From: an uncultured Mycoplasmatota bacterium
Lineage (GTDB): Bacteria > Bacillota_I > Bacilli_A > RF39 > UBA660
DNA length: 64,000 nucleotides
Assembly: GCA_900546715.1 (NCBI GenBank)
Contig: UREA01000004.1
Location: 7,395 to 71,394, forward strand
Reading direction: 5' to 3'
Part shown: positions 3,387-53,808 of the stretch, piece after piece
Position numbering within the stretch: position 1 is the stretch's first letter
How the letters are laid out: each line of letters opens with the position of its first letter
Notes under the pieces: model-generated
Seen by the model: the letters and a program-made list of their open reading frames with translations, nothing else
What the model was told of the DNA's origin: nothing
Database searches by the model: none
Translations under genes and position numbers: made by a program

Positions 3387-4034
3387 TTACATATACATAA
3401 AATCTCGCATTTTTTTCAAACTTTTTGATTCATACCTCGATACCATTACTTGTGTAATACCAAGTTTTCTAGCAGTCTCACTTTGCGTTAAATCTTCATA
3501 ATATCTAGCTTTTATAATATCTTGTTCTAAAGTATCTAGAGAATCAATACTATCTTGAAGCAGTATTTTATCATCTACTGTTACATCTTCTTCTTTATAT
3601 AAAACCTCATGTAAACTTCGCTCATCACTTTCTTCATCAATAGAAACTAAAGAATTCGTATATTCTATTGCATTATTTAAAGTATTTAAATCAATTCCTA
3701 GAAACTCTGCTAATTCCTCATTACTAGGATTACGCATTAATTCTTGGGCCATCATACATCTACCCTTTTCAATTAGTTTATTAAGTTTAATTATATCTTT
3801 ACTTACCTTAATACTTTTATTACTAGCAACCATATACATTTCCCCATAAATATACTTGTAGGCGTATGTACTAAACTTACAATCTCCATCGCATTTATAA
3901 TTGTTATAAGCTTTAATAACCCCTAAAACTCCTGCTTGATATAAATCACTTTTAGGTATTCCATAAAACTTTTTAGCAATCGTCCAAATAAGTCCAGCAT
4001 TTTCTTTAACTATTTCCTCATACATAAGCATCAC
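3387..4034 (-). CDS. sigF: Sporulation-type sigma-70 family sigma factor (SigF/SigG group)
   Basis: Region 2 (FSTYAYKYIYGEM), VKVSR and the region 4.2 HTH (ARKLGITQVMVSRYE) align with SigF/SigG. It overlaps the upstream STAS gene and is followed by spoVAC/D/E, the layout seen in clostridial sigF operons. Confidence 0.75.
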   Translation of the reverse strand: MMLMYEEIVKENAGLIWTIAKKFYGIPKSDLYQAGVLGVIKAYNNYKCDGDCKFSTYAYKYIYGEMYMVASNKSIKVSKDIIKLNKLIEKGRCMMAQELMRNPSNEELAEFLGIDLNTLNNAIEYTNSLVSIDEESDERSLHEVLYKEEDVTVDDKILLQDSIDSLDTLEQDIIKARYYEDLTQSETARKLGITQVMVSRYESKSLKKMRDFMYM

Positions 4035-6344: not shown

Positions 6345-7586
6345 TTATACTATAATTCTGTAAGGATTATCAATTGAGCCATCACCAGAGGCATAAGCTA
6401 CATCAGAGTTTAAGTAAAAAACAGGTCTGACTGACATCCCAGCTAAAGCATCACCAACTTGTCCTAATATACCTGGCCCGTTTGCATAAAAAACCCTTTT
6501 ATTATCACTCAAATAACGAGTAATCGTCCACTCTGGAATCTCTAAAAATAACCAACTACTATTATTATTTAAGCTACAGTTAGTCCAATATTCCGGTAAT
6601 GTAGAATAACCATAATCGCTTACATACATTAAGCCTATTTTTGCATTGTATTTTATGTCTTGTGAATACATACCAACTTCTTCATTATATGTTGATAAAG
6701 TACTCAATAAATAAGCATCATATGTTATAATGCCACCTATACTCCACCATTTAGATAAAATAATATTTTGCCAATTGTTTTCAAAATTTGATAAAAAAAC
6801 ATTATTTAATTAGTAATTTAAATCAGATTTTTCCCAATCATTTGAACCATTATTTCCAGGACTCGGAGCAGCTAAAATTCCACTTAATTGAACAATATCA
6901 TTTTTTTTGATATTGTTGCTCACACTAGAAACATTATCAAAATCTACAATATCAGAATCCCAACTGGAGTCACCTATACTTGCATTTTTAATTAATTTAA
7001 TTTCACCATCAAAAACTCCTATCATTCTATATAAATTATCAACAGGACACGGATTTTCATCACTGCCAAAACAAACATAATTATTTGGATTTGCTCCTGC
7101 ATATCTATATGAATTATCTCCTGCCTCTTGATCTACATTAGTGTATGTTCCTTGACCATCATGATAATAAAGTCCATTAACTCCATCTTCTACATAAACA
7201 TTATTTATAATATAATCAGCTAAATATACTATATCTGGTTCTTTATCAAAGTATACATAACATTTTTCTGTATTATTAGTTTTTAAATTAACAGCATCCA
7301 GTTCTTCATTCCAAGATAATTCCCCACCATTTTCACAACTTGATAAATTACCATTAAAAACATATCCTTCCCCAGGCCAAGTACTTGAAGTAGATTTCTC
7401 ATATGTTCCAGAACCAGCTTCTGTTTCTAACATGAATGTTAGAAAACCACCAACAGAGTTTTCTTTTTTATCCTCAATATTACTTGTATACATACTATTA
7501 TCATCTTCACTTACATAAAAACAAATACTTATACCTAGTATTATTACAAATATACCACTTACTCCAATCAATATCTTTTTTTTCAT
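6345..7586 (-). pseudogene. Secreted/surface protein interrupted by one in-frame TAA (6810-6812); the two halves are 6810..7586 and 6345..6707
   Basis: Both ORFs share one frame. The only stop between them is a single TAA. The read-through translation (..SDLNY*LNNVFLSNFENNWQNIILSKWW..) looks protein-like. The N-terminus has a signal/TM and the C-terminus ends in a GDGSIDNPY-type motif. Confidence 0.5.
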
Positions 7587-7699
7587 TTTTTAACCTACCT
7601 TATAAATGAATTTTATCATTTAAAAAGTACCTATTCTATGGACAAAACATCCATATATTTCAATAAATTTTACCACCATAATTATAATATGGTGGTTCT

Positions 7700-7945
7700 A
7701 TGATACATAATGATATGTATTATTATGATATAGTAAGATATAATATTAAAAAATATAGAGAAAAAGCTAATTTAACTCAACAACAACTAGCTGATTTAGC
7801 GGGCATTACTATGAATTATTTAGCGAAAATTGAAAGTGTTAAAATGCAAAGAGGATTTACAATAGTTATTGTAGGTCGTATTGCTGATGCGCTAAATATT
7901 GATATAAGATGTTTATTTGAACCTATTGAAGAAGAAAATAAATAG
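7700..7945 (+). CDS. XRE-family HTH transcriptional regulator
   Basis: NLTQQQLADLAGITMNYLAKIE helix-turn-helix, 81 aa. Confidence 0.75.
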   Translation: MIHNDMYYYDIVRYNIKKYREKANLTQQQLADLAGITMNYLAKIESVKMQRGFTIVIVGRIADALNIDIRCLFEPIEEENK

Positions 7946-7950
7946 AAAAA

Positions 7951-7995
7951 GAAAGCGACCGCGCCGTCAAGTCGGCACGACCGCTTTCTAAATAT
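7951..7995 (+). terminator. GC-rich hairpin-like element downstream of the XRE gene (possible terminator)
   Basis: agcgaccgcgccgtcaagtcggcacgaccgctttc is a sharp GC island in AT-rich DNA with an imperfect GCCG/CGGC stem followed by CTTTCT. The CGACCGC direct repeat is also notable. Confidence 0.35.
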
Positions 7996-8261
7996 AATAT
8001 ATTACATTTTATAATATTAATCAATAATTATTTACTAAAAAAACAAAACACATATAAATATCTTGTGTGGTATCTTGTGCTATTTCTTATGTGGTTTTAT
8101 AAAATCAATTTAAAAAGGAATTAGATGTACAATACCTAGAATTATAAATAATTCGTCACTGATTTAAAAAATCTAATCCCTTTTATTTACTTATATAATT
8201 ATATATAAGTATTCTATTAACTATACATGGACTTGGGCTCCAATTGCCTGTGCCATAAATA

Positions 8262-8350
8262 ATTAATAGGTTTAAAAGAGTTCTAGTCTCTGCGTCTAAC
8301 GCATAAATCCCTAGACTAACGCCCGAAACGAGCAGAGATACAAACTCTTT
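8262..8350. other. Candidate structured RNA element in a 640-bp ORF-free convergent intergenic region
   Basis: Nested inverted repeats: outer aaaagagtt/aactctttt and inner tctctgc/gcagaga. The inner region holds a CTAACGC direct repeat and tagtct/agacta pairing. A T-tract lies at the plus-strand 3' end. Confidence 0.25.
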
Positions 8351-8535
8351 TCAAAAAGAAACCACCAAAGTACCTGTTATCAAAATTGATAAGTCTCTCC
8401 TATAAAACGGCTTCTTTTTCTATAAATAATATACTATATAATTTATTATATGTCAACAAAACAAAGCTCCCTACTAGGGAACTTCAAGATATTACTCTTC
8501 AATATCGTTAGTAAACTAATACTAGATTGATATCG

Positions 8536-8580
8536 AAAAAAATAATCATGTACTTAAGTAATACCTGTAGTACATGATAT
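8536..8580 (-). terminator. Rho-independent terminator of the yihY-like gene
   Basis: CATGTACT-14 nt-AGTACATG perfect 8-bp stem, followed on the minus strand by ATTATTTTTTTCG. Confidence 0.6.
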
Positions 8581-8586
8581 TATTAT

Positions 8587-9447
8587 TTACTTCTTTTCAA
8601 TATTTATAGAACCTGTTTTTTCCAATTCTACTTCTTCTTTACGATAATTAAGTGCCATACCTATAGTAAATACATAAGCAAGTATGTATATCCAGATCAT
8701 TAACATAACAATATTGGCAAGACTTCCATAAAATGTTGAGTAATATGCGATATTGTTGATATAAAATGAATAACCATAAGTTATAATTATCCAAGAAATA
8801 CTTGTAAATATTGCCCCATATCCGACATTTTTACTCTTTATTCTTTTATTTGGAGCAATAGTATAAAGTATTTTTATAAAGAAATACATTATTAACCAAG
8901 TAACAGGACCTTGCAATAATCTTATGATAGTTGTTACTTTATCAGTAATTGAACTATTTAAATCAACATACTCGAATAATTCAATAATTTTATCCCCAAA
9001 AACTGGAACTATTAGCATAAATATGAAAAGTAATACTAAAAATATTGTCATAATAATTGATTTTAATCTTCTTTTAAAGAAACCAGTTTGTTTTTCACCA
9101 TAAATAGCATTAGATGTAATAATAATAGATGCTGGTCCATTAGATGCCGTATAGTAACCTACAACTAAAGTTATTACTAAACCTAAACCTGAAGCACTTG
9201 ATTCTGGAATATTTAAAAGCATTGATGCAATATCTTTGGAAAAAGCATTAGCTAAAAAATCATATATTACATCGGTTGATAAATTAAGCAAGCTTGCTCC
9301 ATAACTAATAAGTGTTATAGTAGGAACAATAGCAAGCACAAAGAAAAAAGCCAGTTGTCCAGGAAGTATTGCCATCTCCGGCCTTTTTAAAACTTTTATA
9401 AAATTATCAAAAAATTCTTTAACCTCACTTTTTAACTTCTTTTTCAT
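8587..9447 (-). CDS. YihY/BrkB family polytopic membrane protein
   Basis: N-terminal ...RPEMAILPGQLAFFFVLAIVPTITLISYGASLLN... and six TM helices, typical of the YihY family. Confidence 0.75.
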   Translation of the reverse strand: MKKKLKSEVKEFFDNFIKVLKRPEMAILPGQLAFFFVLAIVPTITLISYGASLLNLSTDVIYDFLANAFSKDIASMLLNIPESSASGLGLVITLVVGYYTASNGPASIIITSNAIYGEKQTGFFKRRLKSIIMTIFLVLLFIFMLIVPVFGDKIIELFEYVDLNSSITDKVTTIIRLLQGPVTWLIMYFFIKILYTIAPNKRIKSKNVGYGAIFTSISWIIITYGYSFYINNIAYYSTFYGSLANIVMLMIWIYILAYVFTIGMALNYRKEEVELEKTGSINIEKK

Positions 9448-24748: not shown

Positions 24749-25171
24749 CTAGCTATTTAATTCTATTATTTCTTCTTTAGTCATATAAACTATTCGCTCT
24801 TCATTTATAATATTATTATTTTGATAATCATGATATTCTTTTAACAAGTCATTAAGTTTTTTTGAAGATAATGTATCCTTAGTTCTTCTGAATTTTGACA
24901 ACATTGTACAATTTTCTATAGTTAATTTTGTATTTAATTGAGCATAACTATCTTCATATAAAACAGTTTCTTTTGGATTTTCTGAATTAATAAAATAGTT
25001 ATATTTATGATACAAATTGTGTAATTTTCCGGCTGTTTTATCAATTGCTATTATTTCAATATAATTATCTTTAATATCCGCAATTAACATTGGATGTTCA
25101 ATACTAGCAACTTGATCTATTTGATATCTCACTTTCAACCACAATATTTGCCCCACTTTTAAATCATTCAT
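24749..25171 (-). CDS. Putative toxin partner of the Panacea-domain protein (uncharacterized 140-aa protein)
   Basis: Translationally coupled (ATGA overlap) to the upstream Panacea gene. No recognizable domain; the N-terminus has a weak PemK/SH3-like pattern VGQILWLKV...HPMLIADIKDNYIEII. Confidence 0.4.
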   Translation of the reverse strand: MNDLKVGQILWLKVRYQIDQVASIEHPMLIADIKDNYIEIIAIDKTAGKLHNLYHKYNYFINSENPKETVLYEDSYAQLNTKLTIENCTMLSKFRRTKDTLSSKKLNDLLKEYHDYQNNNIINEERIVYMTKEEIIELNS

Positions 25172-25650
25172 AATTTTAATGCTTCTATTAATCCTTTATA
25201 TCTTTTTTTGTATTCAGCAATGTTGTCCTCAATATTCATTATAGGTGCATTATATGTATTATTGCTTAATTTCTGCCATGTTGGATCTTCATGAGTAATT
25301 TCAATTAATTCATCAAATGTAGCATTCTCTAAAGATATATATATCTTATCTAAAAATTGCTTGTCGGAATCATTTATGTTAACCATACTATTTTGATTAA
25401 TCATTAACCCATATGATTTTACAATATCTTCAATTACTGGACCATTATCATATGCTTTAAAATCATCCTTAAATAATCTTTTATTATATAATGCCAAATA
25501 TACAACTTGAGCTAAAAATAAATATTTATTAATTCTTATATTACCTTCATATGATTTTCTACCATTATAAACAACTACATTTTTGTTGAACAATTTTCGC
25601 TTTGAGTCTTTAGATAAAAAATACATAGCCACATCTTTAGCACTCAACAT
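25168..25650 (-). CDS. Panacea-domain (DUF4065, SocA/GepA-like) protein, putative antitoxin
   Basis: ..NIRINKYLFLAQVVYLALYNKRLF...FKAYDNGPVIEDIV matches the Panacea signature (KLxKLLYxAQ ... GPV). GAGGTGA RBS 7 nt upstream of the start. Confidence 0.6.
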   Translation of the reverse strand: MLSAKDVAMYFLSKDSKRKLFNKNVVVYNGRKSYEGNIRINKYLFLAQVVYLALYNKRLFKDDFKAYDNGPVIEDIVKSYGLMINQNSMVNINDSDKQFLDKIYISLENATFDELIEITHEDPTWQKLSNNTYNAPIMNIEDNIAEYKKRYKGLIEALKL

Positions 25651-49312: not shown

Positions 49313-50445
49313 CTTTTCTTCCTTCCTTTCTTGCTTTTCTTCTTTTTCTTATTATGTTTTACATCAGTTGCTAATCTCACTACTACTTTATCAGTTATTT
49401 CATTTTTCTTCTTATGTTCAAATAATATATCTGTCTTAAGTATTACAAATAATAAAAGAATCATAAGTATTACATATATAGCTATAGCTATTTGATTATC
49501 CCCTAAGACATAAAATATTGATACTGCTGCAAAAGCTATGTCTATCGCATAAATTATTAAAATACTTTTAGTTGGACTATATTTCATTTTAAGAAGTTGA
49601 TGATGAAAATGTTCTTTATCAGCAACTCCAATATTTTGTCCTTTAAGTATCCTTCTAAGTATTGCAAATACTGTATCAAATATTGGTATAGCTAAAATAA
49701 TTATTGGCACAATTAAAGATGTAAATGTTGTTACTTTATATCCAAGAAGTGCAATAATTGATATCATAAACCCTAAAAATAAACTTCCGGTATCTCCCAT
49801 AAATATCTTAGCGGGTGGAAAATTATGAAATAAAAATCCTAAAGTTGAACCAAGCATAATTAGTGATATTATAACATCTAATCCCCCGATACGATTTAAT
49901 ATAAAAGCAATTATAGCAATAGTCAAGAAATATATTGAACTAATACCTGCCGCAAGGCCATCTAGGCCATCAATTAAATTAATAGCATTGGTAATTGCTA
50001 CAATAAATACAATTGAAGTAAGTGAACCCCAAAATTCATTAAAATAAATATTAAATCCAAGTAATGTTACATTTGTAAAATATAGCTCACCATATAATAC
50101 TACAATAGTTGCTGCAATAATTTGGACAATTAATTTATATCTAGCTTTAACTGGATTTATATCATCAACTATACCTACTAAAATAAGTAAGAAACCTCCA
50201 ATTAAAATGGATAACATTTGAGTGCTAACATCACCATAAAGAATATAGCCAAGTAAAAATGCTAGAAAAATTGCCAGTCCCCCAAGCCTTGGCATTGGAA
50301 CTTTATGTATTTTCCTTTCATTTGGTTCATCCATTGCATTTATATGTAAAGCAATCTTTTTTATAATTGGTACAAGTATTAAACTAGCTAAAAAAGTAAC
50401 AATTACTATAATAAATACATTATGTCCATTTACTACTAAATCCAT
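49309..50445 (-). CDS. tagO: Undecaprenyl-phosphate N-acetylhexosamine-1-phosphate transferase (TagO/WecA, MraY-like family)
   Basis: Polytopic; MraY/WecA motifs (..INAMDEPNERKIH.., ..NLIDGLDGLAAG.., FMGDTGS). Lys-rich C-terminal tail. Confidence 0.8.
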   Translation of the reverse strand: MDLVVNGHNVFIIVIVTFLASLILVPIIKKIALHINAMDEPNERKIHKVPMPRLGGLAIFLAFLLGYILYGDVSTQMLSILIGGFLLILVGIVDDINPVKARYKLIVQIIAATIVVLYGELYFTNVTLLGFNIYFNEFWGSLTSIVFIVAITNAINLIDGLDGLAAGISSIYFLTIAIIAFILNRIGGLDVIISLIMLGSTLGFLFHNFPPAKIFMGDTGSLFLGFMISIIALLGYKVTTFTSLIVPIIILAIPIFDTVFAILRRILKGQNIGVADKEHFHHQLLKMKYSPTKSILIIYAIDIAFAAVSIFYVLGDNQIAIAIYVILMILLLFVILKTDILFEHKKKNEITDKVVVRLATDVKHNKKKKKSKKGRKKR

Positions 50446-50592
50446 ATAATATTCTCCTAGTAATAATATTATAACCCATAAAAAAAGAAAATAAAAGAAT
50501 TATCCTTTATTTTCTTGAAAGTAATTTTCAAATTTAACAATTATTTCATTTAAAAGTTCTTTTTTTAGATTCAGTTTCTATTAAATCATCTA

Positions 50593-51467
50593 TTATTTTG
50601 CATTCATTATTTTTTCTTTTACCTTCATAATTAATTTTTTTACAATGAGGTCTCTTGAATGTAAATCATTATTCTTACCCAATAATAAGTTTTCATAAAA
50701 CTTTATTAAGAAACTATTATCTTGTTTTATATTTAAATAATTATTAAAGTAATTACTTCTTACTAGTGCATTTCTATAATAAACAGATTTATCTTTGAAC
50801 ATAGTATTATCTACCGTATATCCAAGCGATATTAGATTAGATACTTTTCTATAAATAGTGCAGTAGTTCTAGTATTACCTTCTCTAAATGGGTGGACCTG
50901 CCACAAATTAGAAGAAAAACTAGTTATATTATTAATCACATCAACCATATTCAATTCTTTATAATTTTTCATTTTTTCTAATGATATATCATAATCTAAT
51001 GATTGCTCTAAAAATCTACAATCACCATAAGCAACTGAATCATTATATAAAATTCTTTCATGTTTAGAAAAATCTACTTTTCTAAATTCTCCAGCAAATT
51101 CGTATACATCCTTGAATAAAAATTTGTGAATATATTTTATATAGTCTACTGATAATTCAAAATTATCTTCTTCTAATAGCTCAACAATTCTCGTAGAAAC
51201 TAAATCGCATTCAAATTCATCCCAAACTATTTCATCTGATTGATCTTTTTCTACATAATATCGTTTTAATTCATGTTCAACTTCATAAATGGTTTTCTCA
51301 CCTGTTACATTTTCTTGTAATAACTTTTCTAAATACTTAGATGGCTTTAAATTATCAACTTCTTGAAGTCCAATTGCCATATCCCACTCTTGTTGTTTTA
51401 TATTATTTTTAGGTGTCTTTGTTTCAACATAATTATTTACACTTGAATCTAATTCTTTTTCAGACAT
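50593..51467 (-). pseudogene. Fic/Doc-family protein gene disrupted by a frameshift near 50830
   Basis: ORF 50832..51467 ends just after the Fic motif HPFREGNTRTTALFIEKYLI. The expected C-terminal remainder (..SLGYTVDNTMFKDKSVYYRNAL..) continues in another frame, through ORF 50593..50802. Confidence 0.55.
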
Positions 51468-51551
51468 TCTAACATCTCCATTTATAACAGTATACCAAAA
51501 AGATTTCTATTTGTCATTGATATACAGATTTTATAAGACGATATTTATTTT

Positions 51552-52454
51552 TTAAATATCAAGTTCCTTTGCATATTTAAAATCAACAATCTCTCCATCT
51601 TTGGTTTTGATCCAACCAATAAACTTATGAGACCAATCTGACAAATCTTTAGCACTCTTTCCCTTAAATTCATCAATTATTTTATCTAATACTTTTATTT
51701 CATTTTCATTAAAACAAGACAAATCAGCATCTTGAAGAGGTGCAAATAACATAGCTGAATCATCAACTGATGAAGCAAGCTTAATATAATCTTGTTTAAT
51801 TAATAAGTTAAGTAAGGCATCTTGATTATTAACAATTGGACCAAATGGCGCATGAGCATATTTAAAATTACTTATTGCTTTATTAAATAATTTATAATTT
51901 AGAAAATCAGATGCAAATAAATATTTCATTAATTGTGTTCTATTTAATATAACTTTATTAAGTATATATAAAATTACATTAATACTTTTATAATCAATAT
52001 CAACATTTATTCTATCTAATATTTTATAATATTTTTCTTTAGATAAATTTTTATTATTTTTTAAAATATTATAAATATTATCTTTATTATTTAATAGGCT
52101 TATATAAGTATCAAGATATTCTTTCTGTGGCAGTGATTTGGCATTTTCATATCTTGTTATTGTTTTTTTACTCCACCCAAGAGCTTCCGCAAATAACCCT
52201 TGAGATAAATTTAGTGACTCTCTTATTTCTTTTAATTTTTCAAAACTTAAACCAAATAAATTTAAATAAGCAACATTTATATCATGTACAAACACATCAT
52301 AATCATCAAAATCATATTCAGTTTCACATATTGGACAAGTAAAAACTCTTTCATCAATCACAACATTTTGACCATGAATATTATGATTAGTTTTTTCAAC
52401 CCTTACTTCCACCATTACATCTTTATCACATTCAAAACAATACATTTTTTCCAT
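51552..52454 (-). CDS. Zinc-finger/HTH(XRE)-Panacea(DUF4065) fusion protein, putative autoregulated antitoxin
   Basis: N-terminal CFEC...CPIC zinc ribbon (MqsA-like), an HTH (LSQGLFAEALGWSKKTITRYE), and a C-terminal Panacea signature (..RTQLMKYLFASDF...FKYAHAPFGPIV). Confidence 0.6.
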   Translation of the reverse strand: MEKMYCFECDKDVMVEVRVEKTNHNIHGQNVVIDERVFTCPICETEYDFDDYDVFVHDINVAYLNLFGLSFEKLKEIRESLNLSQGLFAEALGWSKKTITRYENAKSLPQKEYLDTYISLLNNKDNIYNILKNNKNLSKEKYYKILDRINVDIDYKSINVILYILNKVILNRTQLMKYLFASDFLNYKLFNKAISNFKYAHAPFGPIVNNQDALLNLLIKQDYIKLASSVDDSAMLFAPLQDADLSCFNENEIKVLDKIIDEFKGKSAKDLSDWSHKFIGWIKTKDGEIVDFKYAKELDI

Positions 52455-52516
52455 ATTATCAAATCCTTTCCTAACTATAATTACTTTCGTGAAATGACAA
52501 ACATACCACTTTATTT

Positions 52517-52747
52517 CTATATGTTATATACATTCTTACCATTAATCATTTTTAAAAACACATACATCTCCGTATTATAATCCCTAGAAACATCATAATC
52601 AAAACTTACACTAATACAATCTTGCACATTGAGATTCATTACATGTTTCCATATTTCTTTTTCTTTAAATATACCTATTTCGGCAAGAGCTTGTCTAGCA
52701 GTTAATATTCTACCATTTAAATTAATTTTTCTGTTTTTAATAAACAA
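52517..52747 (-). CDS. Small hypothetical protein (76 aa) upstream of the Panacea-HTH gene
   Basis: ORF only. Same strand, 62 bp from the downstream gene. Confidence 0.25.
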   Translation of the reverse strand: MFIKNRKINLNGRILTARQALAEIGIFKEKEIWKHVMNLNVQDCISVSFDYDVSRDYNTEMYVFLKMINGKNVYNI

Positions 52748-52953
52748 TACATTTTCCTCTCCACTTCTTTTTTACATAATTTCAAAAAAGCCTCTACTGC
52801 ATTTTTATCCAATGTTGATAACATAAATCCTCCTTTACATCCTTCAGTTAATTAATTATAACAAAATTTTATATTGGTGTCGATTGTCACCATTAAGTTT
52901 TTAAACCAACATTAAAAGGCAACCGATTGATTGCCTTTTAATATAATATTTAA

Positions 52954-53808
52954 TTATGATGCCATCATAGTGGTAATTACTATAAATGCAATAATTACAA
53001 CTACAGGTATTATAATTATTGTTAAAATCATTATGAGATATTCTTGTTTTTGATTTTTTAAATATTCTTTATACCAAACTTCTACTTCCGTTTTTTTAGC
53101 AAAGTATCTATTACCTTTTTTATATAGCGGCAAATTATTATAAACATACAAATTTATCACTTTATTTCTACTACATTGAAGCATTTTCATTAAATCAATC
53201 ATAGTTAATTCTTCGTCCTCTACATATTCTTTTCTATTAATATATGCAGTAGTTAAGCTATCTAGCTTACCTCCAATTGTTCTATTTAAAAGATATTTAT
53301 TAGGAAAATCCCCAATAAATCTATCTTCATCATTAAACAGAACATCTGTTTTATAAACAAATATTCTTGTAGTATCTAAAGGCAAAAAACTATCTATTGA
53401 TAATTTAGAAGTTTCAACATTACCAAATATCAAGCGTTCAAAAGGCATTTTTTTCCGCCAATGAGAAACAATTCTATCCTTAATATTTCTAGATGTTCCA
53501 ATATATATTTGACAATAGTCATCTAAAACCATAATATAATATCCAGAATAATTACAATTATTTAAATCTTTTATTTCAATAAATTGTGGATACTTTCTTA
53601 AAAAATCTCTCAAACATTGATTAAAATCATATTTATCTAAGCTTTTAAAACGATTTAGATTAATATCAAAATTTTTTTTACAATTTTTATAATGTTCTAA
53701 TTTACTAGAATCATTTTCAATTTCTTCCAATGAAATATTAATATAATTAGAACTATTTAGTTTAACTTCTTTATATCTTGATATATCAATATTAAAATGC
53801 AACATCAA
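52954..53808 (-). CDS. GIY-YIG nuclease-domain protein with excisionase-type HTH and C-terminal TM anchor
   Basis: GYYIMVLDDYCQIYIGTSRNIKDRIVSH (GIY-YIG), ..LTMIDLMKMLQCSRNKVINLYVYNNLPLYKKGNRYFAKKTEVEVWYKEY (HTH_17/Xis-like), then a hydrophobic C-terminal helix. Confidence 0.55.
   Translation of the reverse strand: MMLHFNIDISRYKEVKLNSSNYINISLEEIENDSSKLEHYKNCKKNFDINLNRFKSLDKYDFNQCLRDFLRKYPQFIEIKDLNNCNYSGYYIMVLDDYCQIYIGTSRNIKDRIVSHWRKKMPFERLIFGNVETSKLSIDSFLPLDTTRIFVYKTDVLFNDEDRFIGDFPNKYLLNRTIGGKLDSLTTAYINRKEYVEDEELTMIDLMKMLQCSRNKVINLYVYNNLPLYKKGNRYFAKKTEVEVWYKEYLKNQKQEYLIMILTIIIIPVVVIIAFIVITTMMAS

What the first reader, a model, noticed from the sequence alone, without database searches (positions are those of the whole stretch)
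50593..52747. Second Panacea module: zinc-ribbon/HTH/Panacea fusion upstream of a Fic/Doc gene that is frameshifted and has a non-canonical motif
The 300-aa protein combines a CxxC...CxxC zinc ribbon, an XRE HTH and a C-terminal Panacea domain. The gene immediately downstream carries a Fic core, but the motif reads HPFREGNTRTTA where HxFx(D/E)GNGRxxR is expected. Its C-terminal ~65 aa are in another frame. This looks like a Panacea::Fic toxin-antitoxin pair caught mid-decay, with the toxin inactivated and the antitoxin/regulator intact. Two Panacea modules bracket the 24.5-kb polysaccharide locus.
Basis: partly seen in the sequence, partly recalled or inferred. Interest (0 to 1): 0.7.

Follow-up and report, generated by a model that had tools for sequence, protein, structure and literature searches.

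The report
Decayed MqsR/MqsA-Panacea module beside broken Fic

Summary
The 300-aa protein (51552-52454, minus strand) has a four-Cys zinc ribbon, an HTH and a Panacea domain. The downstream Fic gene is frameshifted and reads HPFREGNTRTTA. A second Panacea gene lies at 25168-25650.

The pairing with Fic is wrong. In 46 of 55 related loci an intact ~119-aa MqsR-like gene lies 1-32 bp upstream of the fusion gene. Fic follows it only in this window. The first downstream genes elsewhere are unrelated housekeeping or defence genes.

In the window the MqsR-like toxin (52471-52824) is a pseudogene, with a 1-nt deletion in an A-run and an 8-nt deletion. An otherwise invariant T of the conserved operator/-35 box is also changed.

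This ZBD-HTH-Panacea antitoxin paired with MqsR has already been dissected experimentally (Ernits 2023).

Fic is a solitary gene. It matches the PADLOC candidate PDC-S72. It is broken by a 5-nt tandem duplication (50833-50842). Its Thr/Ala motif is conserved in 140 and 123 of 141 cluster representatives and matches the toxic C. fetus Fic2.

Verdict: an ordinary, decaying island of toxin and defence genes, and new members of known kinds.

The parts
52876..52891 (-). Candidate operator overlapping the -35 box. The window reads GGTGACAATCGACACC; the family consensus is GGTGACAATTGACACC. This can be read as an imperfect palindrome (GTGnCAATTGnCAC) or as a TGACA-N2-TGACA direct repeat. The window has C at position 10, which is T in all 45 relatives, so TTGACA becomes TCGACA.
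   Evidence: The 12-mer GACARTTGACAC occurs exactly once in each of 45 loci, always upstream of the toxin gene or, where the toxin is deleted, upstream of the antitoxin gene. Position matrix. Single match in the window with 1 mismatch. Binding by the HTH domain is inferred, not shown.
52855..52883 (-). Sigma-70-type promoter of the toxin-antitoxin operon: TCGACA, 17 nt, TATAAT, with an upstream TG.
   Evidence: Best promoter-like site in 50400-53000, 11 of 12 matches. The same -35/-10 arrangement is conserved in relatives.
52471..52824 (-). MqsR-like toxin pseudogene. Its remains read as three ORF fragments, including the 76-aa TTG ORF at 52517-52747. Lesions are A5 to A4 at 52752-52755 and an 8-nt deletion (TATAAAAT) at about 52525/52526. 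The 8-nt deletion removes the invariant K102 and L103 and puts the conserved C-terminal CxSFH residues out of frame.
   Evidence: tblastn finds three fragments in three frames. DNA alignments to the intact genes of L084 and L085. The repaired product is 97% identical to the intact 120-aa P0236. It differs from the L084 gene by only 7 of 363 nt plus the 2 indels. Family: Pfam MqsR_toxin in 25 of 30 members; the predicted fold's top PDB match is E. coli MqsR 3hi2_B.
51552..52454 (-). Intact antitoxin/regulator of 300 aa. It has an MqsA-type zinc-binding domain (about 52269-52445; C6, C9, C40, C43), an HTH (52089-52235) and a C-terminal Panacea/DUF4065 domain (51612-51932).
   Evidence: Pfam and NCBIfam hits. 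115 homologues, 93-95% identical at full length. Invariant Cys residues. dN/dS 0.15-0.29 against relatives. The same architecture is characterised in B. fungorum (PMC10440598).
51489..51517 (-). Promoter-like site (ATGACA, 17 nt, TATACT, with TG) in the 84-nt spacer upstream of fic.
   Evidence: This is a consensus match only. It is consistent with fic being a separate transcription unit.
50593..51467 (-). Fic pseudogene (PADLOC PDC-S72 / C. fetus Fic2-like subfamily). It has an N-terminal ~100-aa helical, weakly VbhA-like domain and a VbhT/Bep-type FIC domain. The motif HPFREGNTRTTA lies at 50859-50894.
50833..50842 (-). 5-nt tandem duplication ATCTA|ATCTA. It frameshifts fic after codon 210 and gives a stop at 50832-50834.
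   Evidence: Absent from L004, L006, L074 and L082. Seen as a 5-nt insertion in blastn.
50621..50621 (-). Extra T near the 3' end of fic. It replaces the last 3 codons and extends the reading frame by 7 codons. This is a minor second lesion.
   Evidence: Alignment A8, column 340.

Best explanation
The region holds two independent, decaying genetic elements in a strain-variable island. The island lies between a P-type ATPase gene and the polysaccharide locus.

Element 1 is a bicistronic type II toxin-antitoxin operon of the MqsR:PanA kind. From its start it has a promoter with an overlapping palindromic operator, then a ~120-aa MqsR-like RNase toxin gene, then 16 bp later an antitoxin gene. The antitoxin is an MqsA-type zinc-binding domain plus HTH with a C-terminal Panacea domain.

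By analogy with E. coli MqsRA and the dissected B. fungorum MqsR:PanA (inferred, not shown here):
- the zinc-binding domain binds and neutralises the toxin;
- the HTH dimer represses the operon at the conserved operator;
- the Panacea domain is dispensable for neutralisation and may be a sensor.

In this window the toxin is dead, through two frame-breaking indels. An invariant -35/operator base is mutated. The antitoxin ORF is intact, so it is an orphan antitoxin.

Element 2 is a solitary fic gene of a large, highly conserved subfamily. It combines a weakly VbhA-like N-terminal domain with a VbhT/Bep-type FIC domain. The subfamily motif is HxFxEGN-T-RT-x-A. PADLOC lists the family as PDC-S72, a candidate single-gene defence system. 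In the window the gene is inactivated by a 5-nt tandem duplication. Its position next to the Panacea gene is an accident of island structure.
For: Pairing. 46 of 55 loci have an intact MqsR-like ORF 1-32 bp upstream of the fusion gene, although the fusion proteins are only 38-93% identical to the window's and sit in many different genomic sites. The operator 12-mer is present once in each of 45 loci.

Toxin identity. Pfam MqsR_toxin hits 25 of 30 members. The AF2 model has pLDDT 87, and its top PDB hit is MqsR 3hi2_B (TM 0.73, rmsd 2.7).

Antitoxin identity..

Literature. MqsR-like is the commonest annotated PanT domain (n=90). Group T2 has the order T|A with an HTH-PanA in Bacilli (PMC8832971). 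For the ZBD-HTH-Panacea antitoxin, ZBD neutralises and Panacea is not required (PMC10440598).

Lesions.. An intact 97%-identical toxin exists elsewhere. There are no frame-breaking indels in about 5.4 kb of flanking ATPase, GT4 and ABC genes when compared with the same relatives.

Fic independence.. PADLOC PDC-S72 hit at E 3.2e-76. Motif conservation. 282 clusters (50% identity) at E<=1e-30, of which the 150 best listed mostly match over nearly the whole protein. FIC fold. Fic2 precedent (PMC5651007).
Against: - No reads are available, so the indels could be assembly or consensus errors. The A5-to-A4 change in particular is a typical error type.
- In this clade fic does recur in the same island: L004 and L005 have PanA, an SLFN/AlbA_2 gene, then Fic; L010 has a Fic remnant. 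A lineage-specific functional link is therefore not strictly excluded.
- MqsR membership rests on borderline sequence scores (26.3 bits against a cut-off of 26.2) and a Foldseek E of only 7e-3, although MqsR is the top hit.
- The antitoxin scores just below the curated TIGR03830 cut-off.
- Operator binding, toxicity and neutralisation are all inferred from homologues.
- The VbhA-like assignment of the Fic N-terminus is weak: 7 of 25 Pfam hits (best 7.6e-4) and hhalign probability 8%.
Confidence: 0.8

Rival explanations
1. One reading: the zinc-ribbon/HTH/Panacea protein and the downstream Fic form a cognate Panacea::Fic toxin-antitoxin pair. Fic is the decaying toxin, shown by its degenerate motif and frameshift.
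For: - The two genes are adjacent on the same strand, 84 bp apart.
- Fic/Doc toxins are known PanA partners (n=32), and one pair has been validated (PMC8832971).
- fic recurs in the same island in L004, L005 and L010.
Against: - No other locus of 55 has an intact Fic next to the fusion gene, whereas 46 have MqsR-like upstream.
- Downstream genes elsewhere are unrelated.
- Fic homologues are solitary.
- Homology with L004 starts only ~15 nt upstream of the fic start codon, so the junction is not conserved.
- fic has its own promoter-like site.
- Validated Doc:PanA pairs use a Phd-C domain, not ZBD-HTH.
- The motif is conserved, not degenerate.
Confidence: 0.04
2. Assembly or sequencing artefact: the toxin and fic genes are intact in the organism, and the indels are consensus errors.
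For: - One lesion is a 1-nt change in an A-run, and another is a single extra T.
- The sequence looks like a metagenome-derived Bacilli genome, and no reads are available.
Against: - A 5-nt tandem duplication and an 8-nt deletion are not typical sequencing errors.
- Four indels fall within about 1.2 kb of toxin and fic coding sequence. None that breaks a frame falls in about 5.4 kb of flanking conserved genes or in the 903-nt antitoxin gene.
- An invariant promoter/operator base is also substituted.
- Independent assemblies show different lesions of the same toxin: a nonsense codon in L010, a deletion in L012, and frameshifts in L019 and L041.
Confidence: 0.12
3. Dual-function antitoxin: the ZBD neutralises MqsR, while the Panacea domain senses or neutralises neighbouring island genes such as Fic. 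The three genes would then form one functional unit in this lineage.
For: - The role of Panacea in ZBD-containing PanAs is unknown, and a sensor role has been proposed (PMC10440598).
- In the closest relatives the genes downstream of the antitoxin are often defence-type: Mrr-like nuclease, SLFN/AlbA_2, Cas9, DUF2397 and Fic.
Against: - Across the wider family the downstream genes are housekeeping and unrelated.
- The two-gene module moves as a unit between sites, for example L085 against L084.
- No co-variation with Fic is seen.
Confidence: 0.05
4. Phase variation or programmed frameshifting keeps the toxin or fic switchable rather than dead.
For: One lesion lies in a short A-run.
Against: - A run of 4-5 A is too short for efficient slippage.
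- The 8-nt deletion and the 5-nt duplication are not reversible by slippage.
- All homologues are single-frame.
Confidence: 0.02

Closest known systems
Bacillus fungorum MqsR:PanA (Ernits et al. 2023, PNAS, PMC10440598) and PanAT group T2 of Kurata et al. 2022 (PMC8832971)
   Same: - The toxin gene comes first and the antitoxin second.
- The toxin is MqsR-like.
- The antitoxin is a Zn-binding domain plus HTH (MqsA-type) with Panacea added at the C terminus.
- It occurs in Bacilli.
   Different: - Here the toxin is a pseudogene, and the -35/operator carries a substitution at an invariant base.
- Sequence identity to the B. fungorum proteins was not measured.
- The conserved operator GGTGACAATTGACACC comes from this analysis. 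I did not find it described, and I did not search for it specifically.
E. coli MqsR/MqsA (PDB 3HI2; Brown et al. 2009)
   Same: - Gene order is toxin then antitoxin.
- The predicted toxin fold matches MqsR (TM 0.73).
- The toxin C-terminal motif YIKLT...SFHE parallels MqsR's YLKIT...SFKEK. The MqsR motif is from my memory of the sequence.
- The antitoxin has a four-Cys Zn domain followed by an HTH.
- A palindromic operator sits in the promoter.
   Different: - The antitoxin carries an extra ~170-aa Panacea domain.
- The toxin is ~20 aa longer at the N terminus.
- The operator sequence differs from the E. coli ACCT-N-AGGT palindrome (from memory).
- Sequence similarity is only borderline.
Campylobacter fetus Fic2 (Sprenger et al. 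2017, PMC5651007)
   Same: - The core motif is almost identical: HPFREGNTRTIA against HPFREGNTRTTA.
- The catalytic His sits at a similar position (184 against 192).
- Fic2 is toxic in E. coli, and toxicity depends on that His.
   Different: - Fic2 is encoded in tandem with the class II protein Fic1, which neutralises it. The window's family is solitary, with no Fic1-like neighbour.
- Full-length similarity to Fic2 was not measured.
VbhT/VbhA and Bartonella Bep FIC domains (PDB 3ZCB, 3SHG, 4NPS)
   Same: - These are the best sequence and structure matches for the FIC domain (E 1e-9 to 1e-12; TM 0.73 to VbhT).
- The N-terminal domain aligns weakly to the antitoxin VbhA in the register of its inhibitory helix.
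   Different: - Motif positions 8 and 12 are Thr and Ala instead of Gly and Arg.
- The VbhA-like segment is fused in cis.
- It reads LxxxD[GN] where VbhA has SxxxEG.
PADLOC PDC-S72, a phage-defence-candidate single-gene system (PADLOC-DB v2)
   Same: The match covers nearly the whole protein (E 3.2e-76). Homologues occur in islands with RnlAB, Eco57I-type restriction-modification, integrase and Uzume genes.
   Different: It is only a candidate, and I found no experimental paper. The window copy is frameshifted.

Membership tests
MqsR/MqsA-type type II TA | Bicistronic operon with the toxin gene upstream of the antitoxin gene | tested here: met
   46 of 55 loci have an intact ~119-aa ORF 1-32 bp upstream of the antitoxin. 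In the window the toxin is a pseudogene, with a 16-bp gap to the antitoxin start.
MqsR/MqsA-type type II TA | Toxin belongs to the MqsR family by sequence | tested here: inconclusive
   Pfam PF15723 hits 25 of 30 members at E<0.01. Scores sit at the threshold: 26.3 bits (L001) and 25.3 bits (P0236) against a cut-off of 26.2. A profile search of PDB sequences found nothing.
MqsR/MqsA-type type II TA | Toxin has the MqsR (RelE-like) fold | tested here: met
   The AF2 model has pLDDT 87.3. The top Foldseek PDB hit is E. coli MqsR 3hi2_B (TMt 0.73, rmsd 2.7 over 107 columns, prob 1.00, E 7e-3). The other hits are de novo or NTF2-like proteins with TM about 0.3.
MqsR/MqsA-type type II TA | Antitoxin has an N-terminal four-Cys zinc-binding domain followed by an HTH | tested here: met
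   C6, C9, C40 and C43 are invariant. TIGR03830 covers residues 6-131 at E 5.9e-16, but 58.4 bits is below the 61.8 cut-off. HTH_3 scores 44.7 bits.
MqsR/MqsA-type type II TA | RNase activity of the toxin; neutralisation by the zinc-binding domain; autorepression at the operator | not testable with these tools
   Inferred from E. coli MqsRA and B. fungorum MqsR:PanA (PMC10440598). A conserved operator-like 16-mer was found.
PanAT (Panacea-containing antitoxin systems) | Panacea/DUF4065 domain above the curated threshold | tested here: met
   PF13274 scores 59.2 bits against 25.7, residues 175-281, covering 112 of 113 model positions.
PanAT (Panacea-containing antitoxin systems) | Conserved two-gene neighbourhood with a toxin | tested here: met
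   Met with the MqsR-like gene. This matches Kurata group T2: MqsR, HTH-PanA, order T|A.
   An intact or near-complete Fic lies adjacent only in the window. L010 has a 51-aa remnant. In L004 and L005 another gene lies between. Every other locus has unrelated neighbours.
   The antitoxin's N-terminus is ZBD-HTH. The Fic is VbhT/Bep-type, and the Doc model TIGR01550 was not hit by the window protein. The Phd-C requirement is taken from PMC10440598.
Canonical AMPylating FIC enzymes | Core motif HxFx(D/E)GNGRxxR | tested here: not met
   The window reads HPFREGNTRTTA, with Thr for Gly at position 8 and Ala for Arg at position 12. This is conserved family-wide.
Canonical AMPylating FIC enzymes | FIC fold | tested here: met
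   AF2 pLDDT 93.8. Top PDB hits are Bep, VbhT, FicT and EfFic (prob 1.00; TMt up to 0.73-0.75).
Fic2-like / PADLOC PDC-S72 subfamily | Motif HxFxEGN-T-RT-x-A and a full-length match to the family profile | tested here: met
   PDC-S72 hit at E 3.2e-76 over residues 11-281. Thr8 in 140 of 141 and Ala12 in 123 of 141 representatives. C. fetus Fic2 has HPFREGNTRTIA.
Fic2-like / PADLOC PDC-S72 subfamily | Intact single-frame ORF of about 282 aa | tested here: not met
   A 5-nt tandem duplication truncates the product at 211 aa.
Class II (cis-inhibited) Fic / VbhA-like inhibitory module | Inhibitory helix motif [ST]xxxE[GN] in an N-terminal helix | tested here: not met
   The aligned positions read L34-x-x-x-D38-N39; the family consensus is LQxVDG. 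The motif as defined is therefore absent.
Class II (cis-inhibited) Fic / VbhA-like inhibitory module | Homology of the N-terminal domain to VbhA | tested here: inconclusive
   Pfam VbhA hits 7 of 25 members (best E 7.6e-4). hhalign to VbhA (3zc7_B) aligns 42 columns at E 0.004, but with probability only 8%.

The most novel reading that the evidence does not exclude
The orphaned MqsA-Panacea antitoxin is kept by selection after the toxin is lost. It could serve as anti-addiction immunity against MqsR-carrying mobile elements or phages, or as a Panacea-based sensor and regulator acting on neighbouring island genes. On this reading, the repeated independent inactivation of the toxin in related gut Bacilli is adaptive rather than neutral decay. 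The cases are the window, L010, L012, L019 and L041, with the toxin absent from L018, L028 and L037; in L018 the operator is still present.
Probability: 0.15. Interest if true: 0.45.

Novelty: new member of a known kind. Interest (0 to 1): 0.22.

Why it matters
The main value is as a correction. A Panacea antitoxin should be paired by conserved neighbourhood, not by whichever toxin-like gene happens to lie downstream. A non-canonical catalytic motif should be checked against the family before it is called decay.

Three modest positive points come out of the analysis.

1. The MqsR:MqsA-Panacea family of gut Bacilli carries a strongly conserved 16-bp operator over its -35 box. This gives a concrete target for studying autoregulation.
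2. Toxin loss with retention of the antitoxin recurs in this family.
3. The Fic subfamily with the Thr/Ala motif is very large: more than 7,900 proteins in the 90%-identity cluster database and 282 clusters at 50% identity with E<=1e-30. It is highly conserved and associated with defence islands, and its chemistry is unknown.

Tried and rejected
- **Panacea::Fic pairing.** Rejected after the genome contigs survey and the Pfam scan of first downstream genes.
- **Third 1-nt deletion in the toxin.** An apparent deletion near the toxin stop, seen against L001, is shared with L010, L012, L084 and L085. It only changes the C terminus to ...HESNYS*. It is not a lesion.
- **Toxin profile against PDB sequences.** No hit. 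The fold search was needed instead.
- **Fic N-terminal profile against PDB sequences.** Only spurious uS9m and kinesin hits.
- **Literature search for PDC-S72.** Nothing found.
- **SoFic membership of the Fic.** Only a weak hit (4.9e-5), so it is not SoFic.
- **First dN/dS attempt on the toxin.** It used a start coordinate 2 nt off and gave nonsense. It was redone as a simple difference count.
- **blastn alignment of the fic 3' end to L004.** This produced a string of artefactual gaps. The MAFFT alignment was used instead.
- **Phase variation or programmed frameshifting.** Considered and rejected, because the lesions are not reversible by slippage.
Full report
**1. What is in the sequence**

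All genes discussed lie on the minus strand.

- ORF 51552-52454 encodes a 300-aa protein. It hits Pfam SocA_Panacea (residues 175-281, 59.2 bits against a cut-off of 25.7) and HTH_3 (residues 74-122). NCBIfam TIGR03830, the 'CxxCG_CxxCG_HTH, MqsA family' model, covers residues 6-131 at E 5.9e-16, at 58.4 bits, just under its 61.8 cut-off.
- The four Cys residues (C6, C9, C40, C43) are invariant in 24 homologues.
- ORF 50832-51467 (211 aa) carries a Pfam Fic domain and ends 10 residues after the motif HPFREGNTRTTA.
- The rest of the Fic protein continues in another frame down to the stop at 50593-50595.
- A second Panacea gene lies at 25168-25650. A 140-aa ORF overlaps its 3' end.

**2. The Fic frameshift and the Fic motif**

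Removing one copy of a 5-nt tandem repeat (ATCTA|ATCTA, 50833-50842) restores a 289-aa protein. That protein is 95-96% identical over its length to intact 282-283-aa proteins. Four homologous genes from other contigs lack the extra 5 nt. A single extra T at 50621 also rewrites the last three codons.

The motif is not decay.
- It is invariant among close homologues.
- In 141 cluster representatives from an exhaustive search, position 8 is Thr in 140 and position 12 is Ala in 123. That search found 282 clusters (50% identity) at E<=1e-30.
- The near-identical motif HPFREGNTRTIA is the signature of Campylobacter fetus Fic2. Fic2 is toxic in E. coli, and the toxicity requires the catalytic His (PMC5651007).

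The predicted structure (pLDDT 93.8) is a VbhT/Bep/FicT-type FIC domain preceded by about 100 residues of helices.

The N-terminal segment is conserved across the family, with consensus W..A.GLQ.VDGL.PS.YL. It resembles the antitoxin VbhA only weakly.
- Pfam VbhA hits 7 of 25 members, best E 7.6e-4.
- hhalign against VbhA aligns 42 columns at E 0.004, with probability 8%.
- VbhA's S20, E24 and G25 align to L34, D38 and N39.

A cis-inhibitory role for this segment is a lead, not a result.

**3. Who is the partner of the Panacea protein?**

Look-ups of close homologues first showed the antitoxin preceded by a 119-aa gene with a weak MqsR_toxin hit and followed by an Mrr-like gene, not Fic. They also showed a 94%-identical Fic next to an SLFN/AlbA_2 gene at the same chromosomal site, without an adjacent Panacea gene.

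A scan of one genome per species returned 66 loci. Of the 55 fetched loci with a (near-)full-length fusion gene:
- 46 have an intact MqsR-like ORF 1-32 bp upstream;
- 4 have it visibly disrupted: a nonsense codon in L010, a 5' deletion in L012, and frameshifts in L019 and L041;
- 3 lack it (L018, L028, L037);
- 2 are cut by contig ends.

Fic follows only in the window. L010 keeps a 51-aa remnant.

The first downstream genes of 44 loci have nothing in common. They include ribosomal proteins L11 and S12, EPSP synthase, UvrC, RelA/SpoT, methyladenine glycosylase, GT4 glycosyltransferase and DUF2397. In the closest relative with an intact toxin (L084) the downstream gene is a Cas9.

Fic homologues 83-85% identical sit alone between recG and a DUF218 gene, or in islands with RnlAB, Eco57I-type restriction-modification and integrase genes.

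The conserved unit is therefore the two-gene toxin-antitoxin operon. Fic is an independent neighbour.

**4. Identity of the upstream gene**

- 25 of 30 family members hit Pfam MqsR_toxin, with scores at the threshold.
- The AF2 model of the closest intact homologue (pLDDT 87.3) has E. coli MqsR (3hi2_B) as its top PDB match, with TM 0.73 and rmsd 2.7 Å. Nothing else comes close.
- Residues invariant across the family include Y100, K102, C111, S113, F114 and H115.

**5. State of the module in the window**

The sequence was compared with the intact genes of L084 and L085. The window's toxin gene (52471-52824) has lost one A from an A5 run (52752-52755). It has also lost 8 nt (TATAAAAT, at about 52525/52526). 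The 8-nt loss removes K102 and L103 and puts the conserved C terminus out of frame.

Once repaired, the gene differs from L084 by only 7 of 363 nt, so the inactivation looks recent. The repaired product is 97% identical to an intact 120-aa protein.

Upstream lies the best sigma-70-like promoter of the region: TCGACA, 17 nt, TATAAT, at 52855-52883.

Overlapping its -35 box is a 16-mer whose family consensus is GGTGACAATTGACACC.
- Its 12-mer core occurs exactly once in each of 45 loci, always in this position, even though the surrounding DNA is not conserved.
- It is an imperfect palindrome and the obvious candidate operator for the HTH domain. That role is inferred.
- The window carries C at position 10, where all 45 relatives have T. 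This also damages the -35 hexamer.

The antitoxin ORF itself is intact. It shows dN/dS of 0.15-0.29 against relatives.

About 5.4 kb of flanking ATPase, GT4 and ABC-transporter genes show no frame-breaking indels against the same relatives. This argues against random assembly error, but reads are needed to settle it.

**6. Mechanism**

Shown here:
- the gene order;
- the domain content;
- the conserved pairing;
- the conserved operator-like element;
- the lesions.

Inferred from E. coli MqsRA and from the experimentally dissected B. fungorum MqsR:PanA (PMC10440598):
- the toxin is an RNase;
- the zinc-binding domain neutralises it;
- the HTH dimer autoregulates the operon;
- the Panacea domain is not needed for neutralisation and may be a sensor.

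In the window the operon now encodes only an orphan antitoxin. Fic would have been a self-contained toxic or defence enzyme of unknown chemistry. PADLOC lists it as candidate PDC-S72 (E 3.2e-76). The window copy is truncated after the catalytic loop and lacks about 70 conserved C-terminal residues.

**7. Comparison with what is known, and novelty**

- Kurata et al. 2022 list MqsR-like as the commonest annotated partner of Panacea antitoxins (n=90). Their group T2 has the toxin-first order and HTH-PanA antitoxins in Bacilli.
- Ernits et al. 2023 describe exactly the ZBD-HTH-Panacea architecture.
- The Fic motif has a published precedent in C. fetus Fic2.

Both elements are therefore new members of known kinds, and both are pseudogenised or orphaned here.

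The region between the ATPase and the polysaccharide genes is a strain-variable island of toxin and defence genes. It holds Uzume, MqsR:PanA and Fic in the window, and Mrr-like, SLFN/AlbA_2, Cas9 or DUF2397 genes in relatives.

Interest is low. The useful outcomes are the corrected pairing, the operator motif, and the recurrent loss of the toxin with retention of the antitoxin.

Noticed in passing
window 52954-53808 (minus strand): A 284-aa gene lies between the P-type ATPase and the TA operon. It matches PADLOC UzuA (Uzume defence system) at E 1.6e-63 and has a weak GIY-YIG hit. It is absent from the same site in L001, L009, L010 and L084, so it is an insertion in this strain's island.
   Followed up: partly
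window 24749-25650 (minus strand): The other Panacea module is a 160-aa Panacea-only protein (25168-25650, Pfam E 1.1e-13). A 140-aa ORF (24749-25171) overlaps its stop by 4 nt and has no hit in Pfam, NCBIfam or PADLOC. It is a plausible PanA-PanT pair with an unannotated toxin.
   Followed up: partly
L010 3622-3978; L012 3794-3978; L019 3629-3987; L041 3632-3996; L018, L028 and L037 upstream of position 4001: The MqsR-like toxin is independently inactivated or lost in other genomes, while the antitoxin is kept. L010 has a TGG-to-TAG nonsense codon, L012 a 5' deletion, and L019 and L041 frameshifts. The toxin is absent from L018, L028 and L037; in L018 the operator 12-mer is still present.
   Followed up: partly
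L001 6191-7186; L004 147-1802; L084 6444-8684; L010 4983-5345 and 5440-5592: The slot downstream of the antitoxin differs between close relatives. L001 has an Mrr-like nuclease, L004 an SLFN/AlbA_2-HATPase gene followed by Fic, and L084 a Cas9. L010 has a truncated DUF2397 gene plus a 51-aa Fic remnant. This indicates a hot spot of gene flux.
   Followed up: partly
L012 4926-5126: A second, partial copy of the antitoxin N-terminus (residues 1-67, 76% identical) lies directly after the full antitoxin gene.
   Followed up: no
window 51552-52824 compared with L084 5077-6361: Divergence is uneven along the operon. The toxin DNA differs by 1.9%. The antitoxin's Panacea half has dS about 0.12, and its ZBD-HTH half has dS about 0.34. 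This suggests recombination within the operon or faster turnover of the neutralising domain.
   Followed up: no
window 7586-8587: About 1 kb has no ORF of 110 aa or more in an otherwise densely coding window. It was not examined.
   Followed up: no
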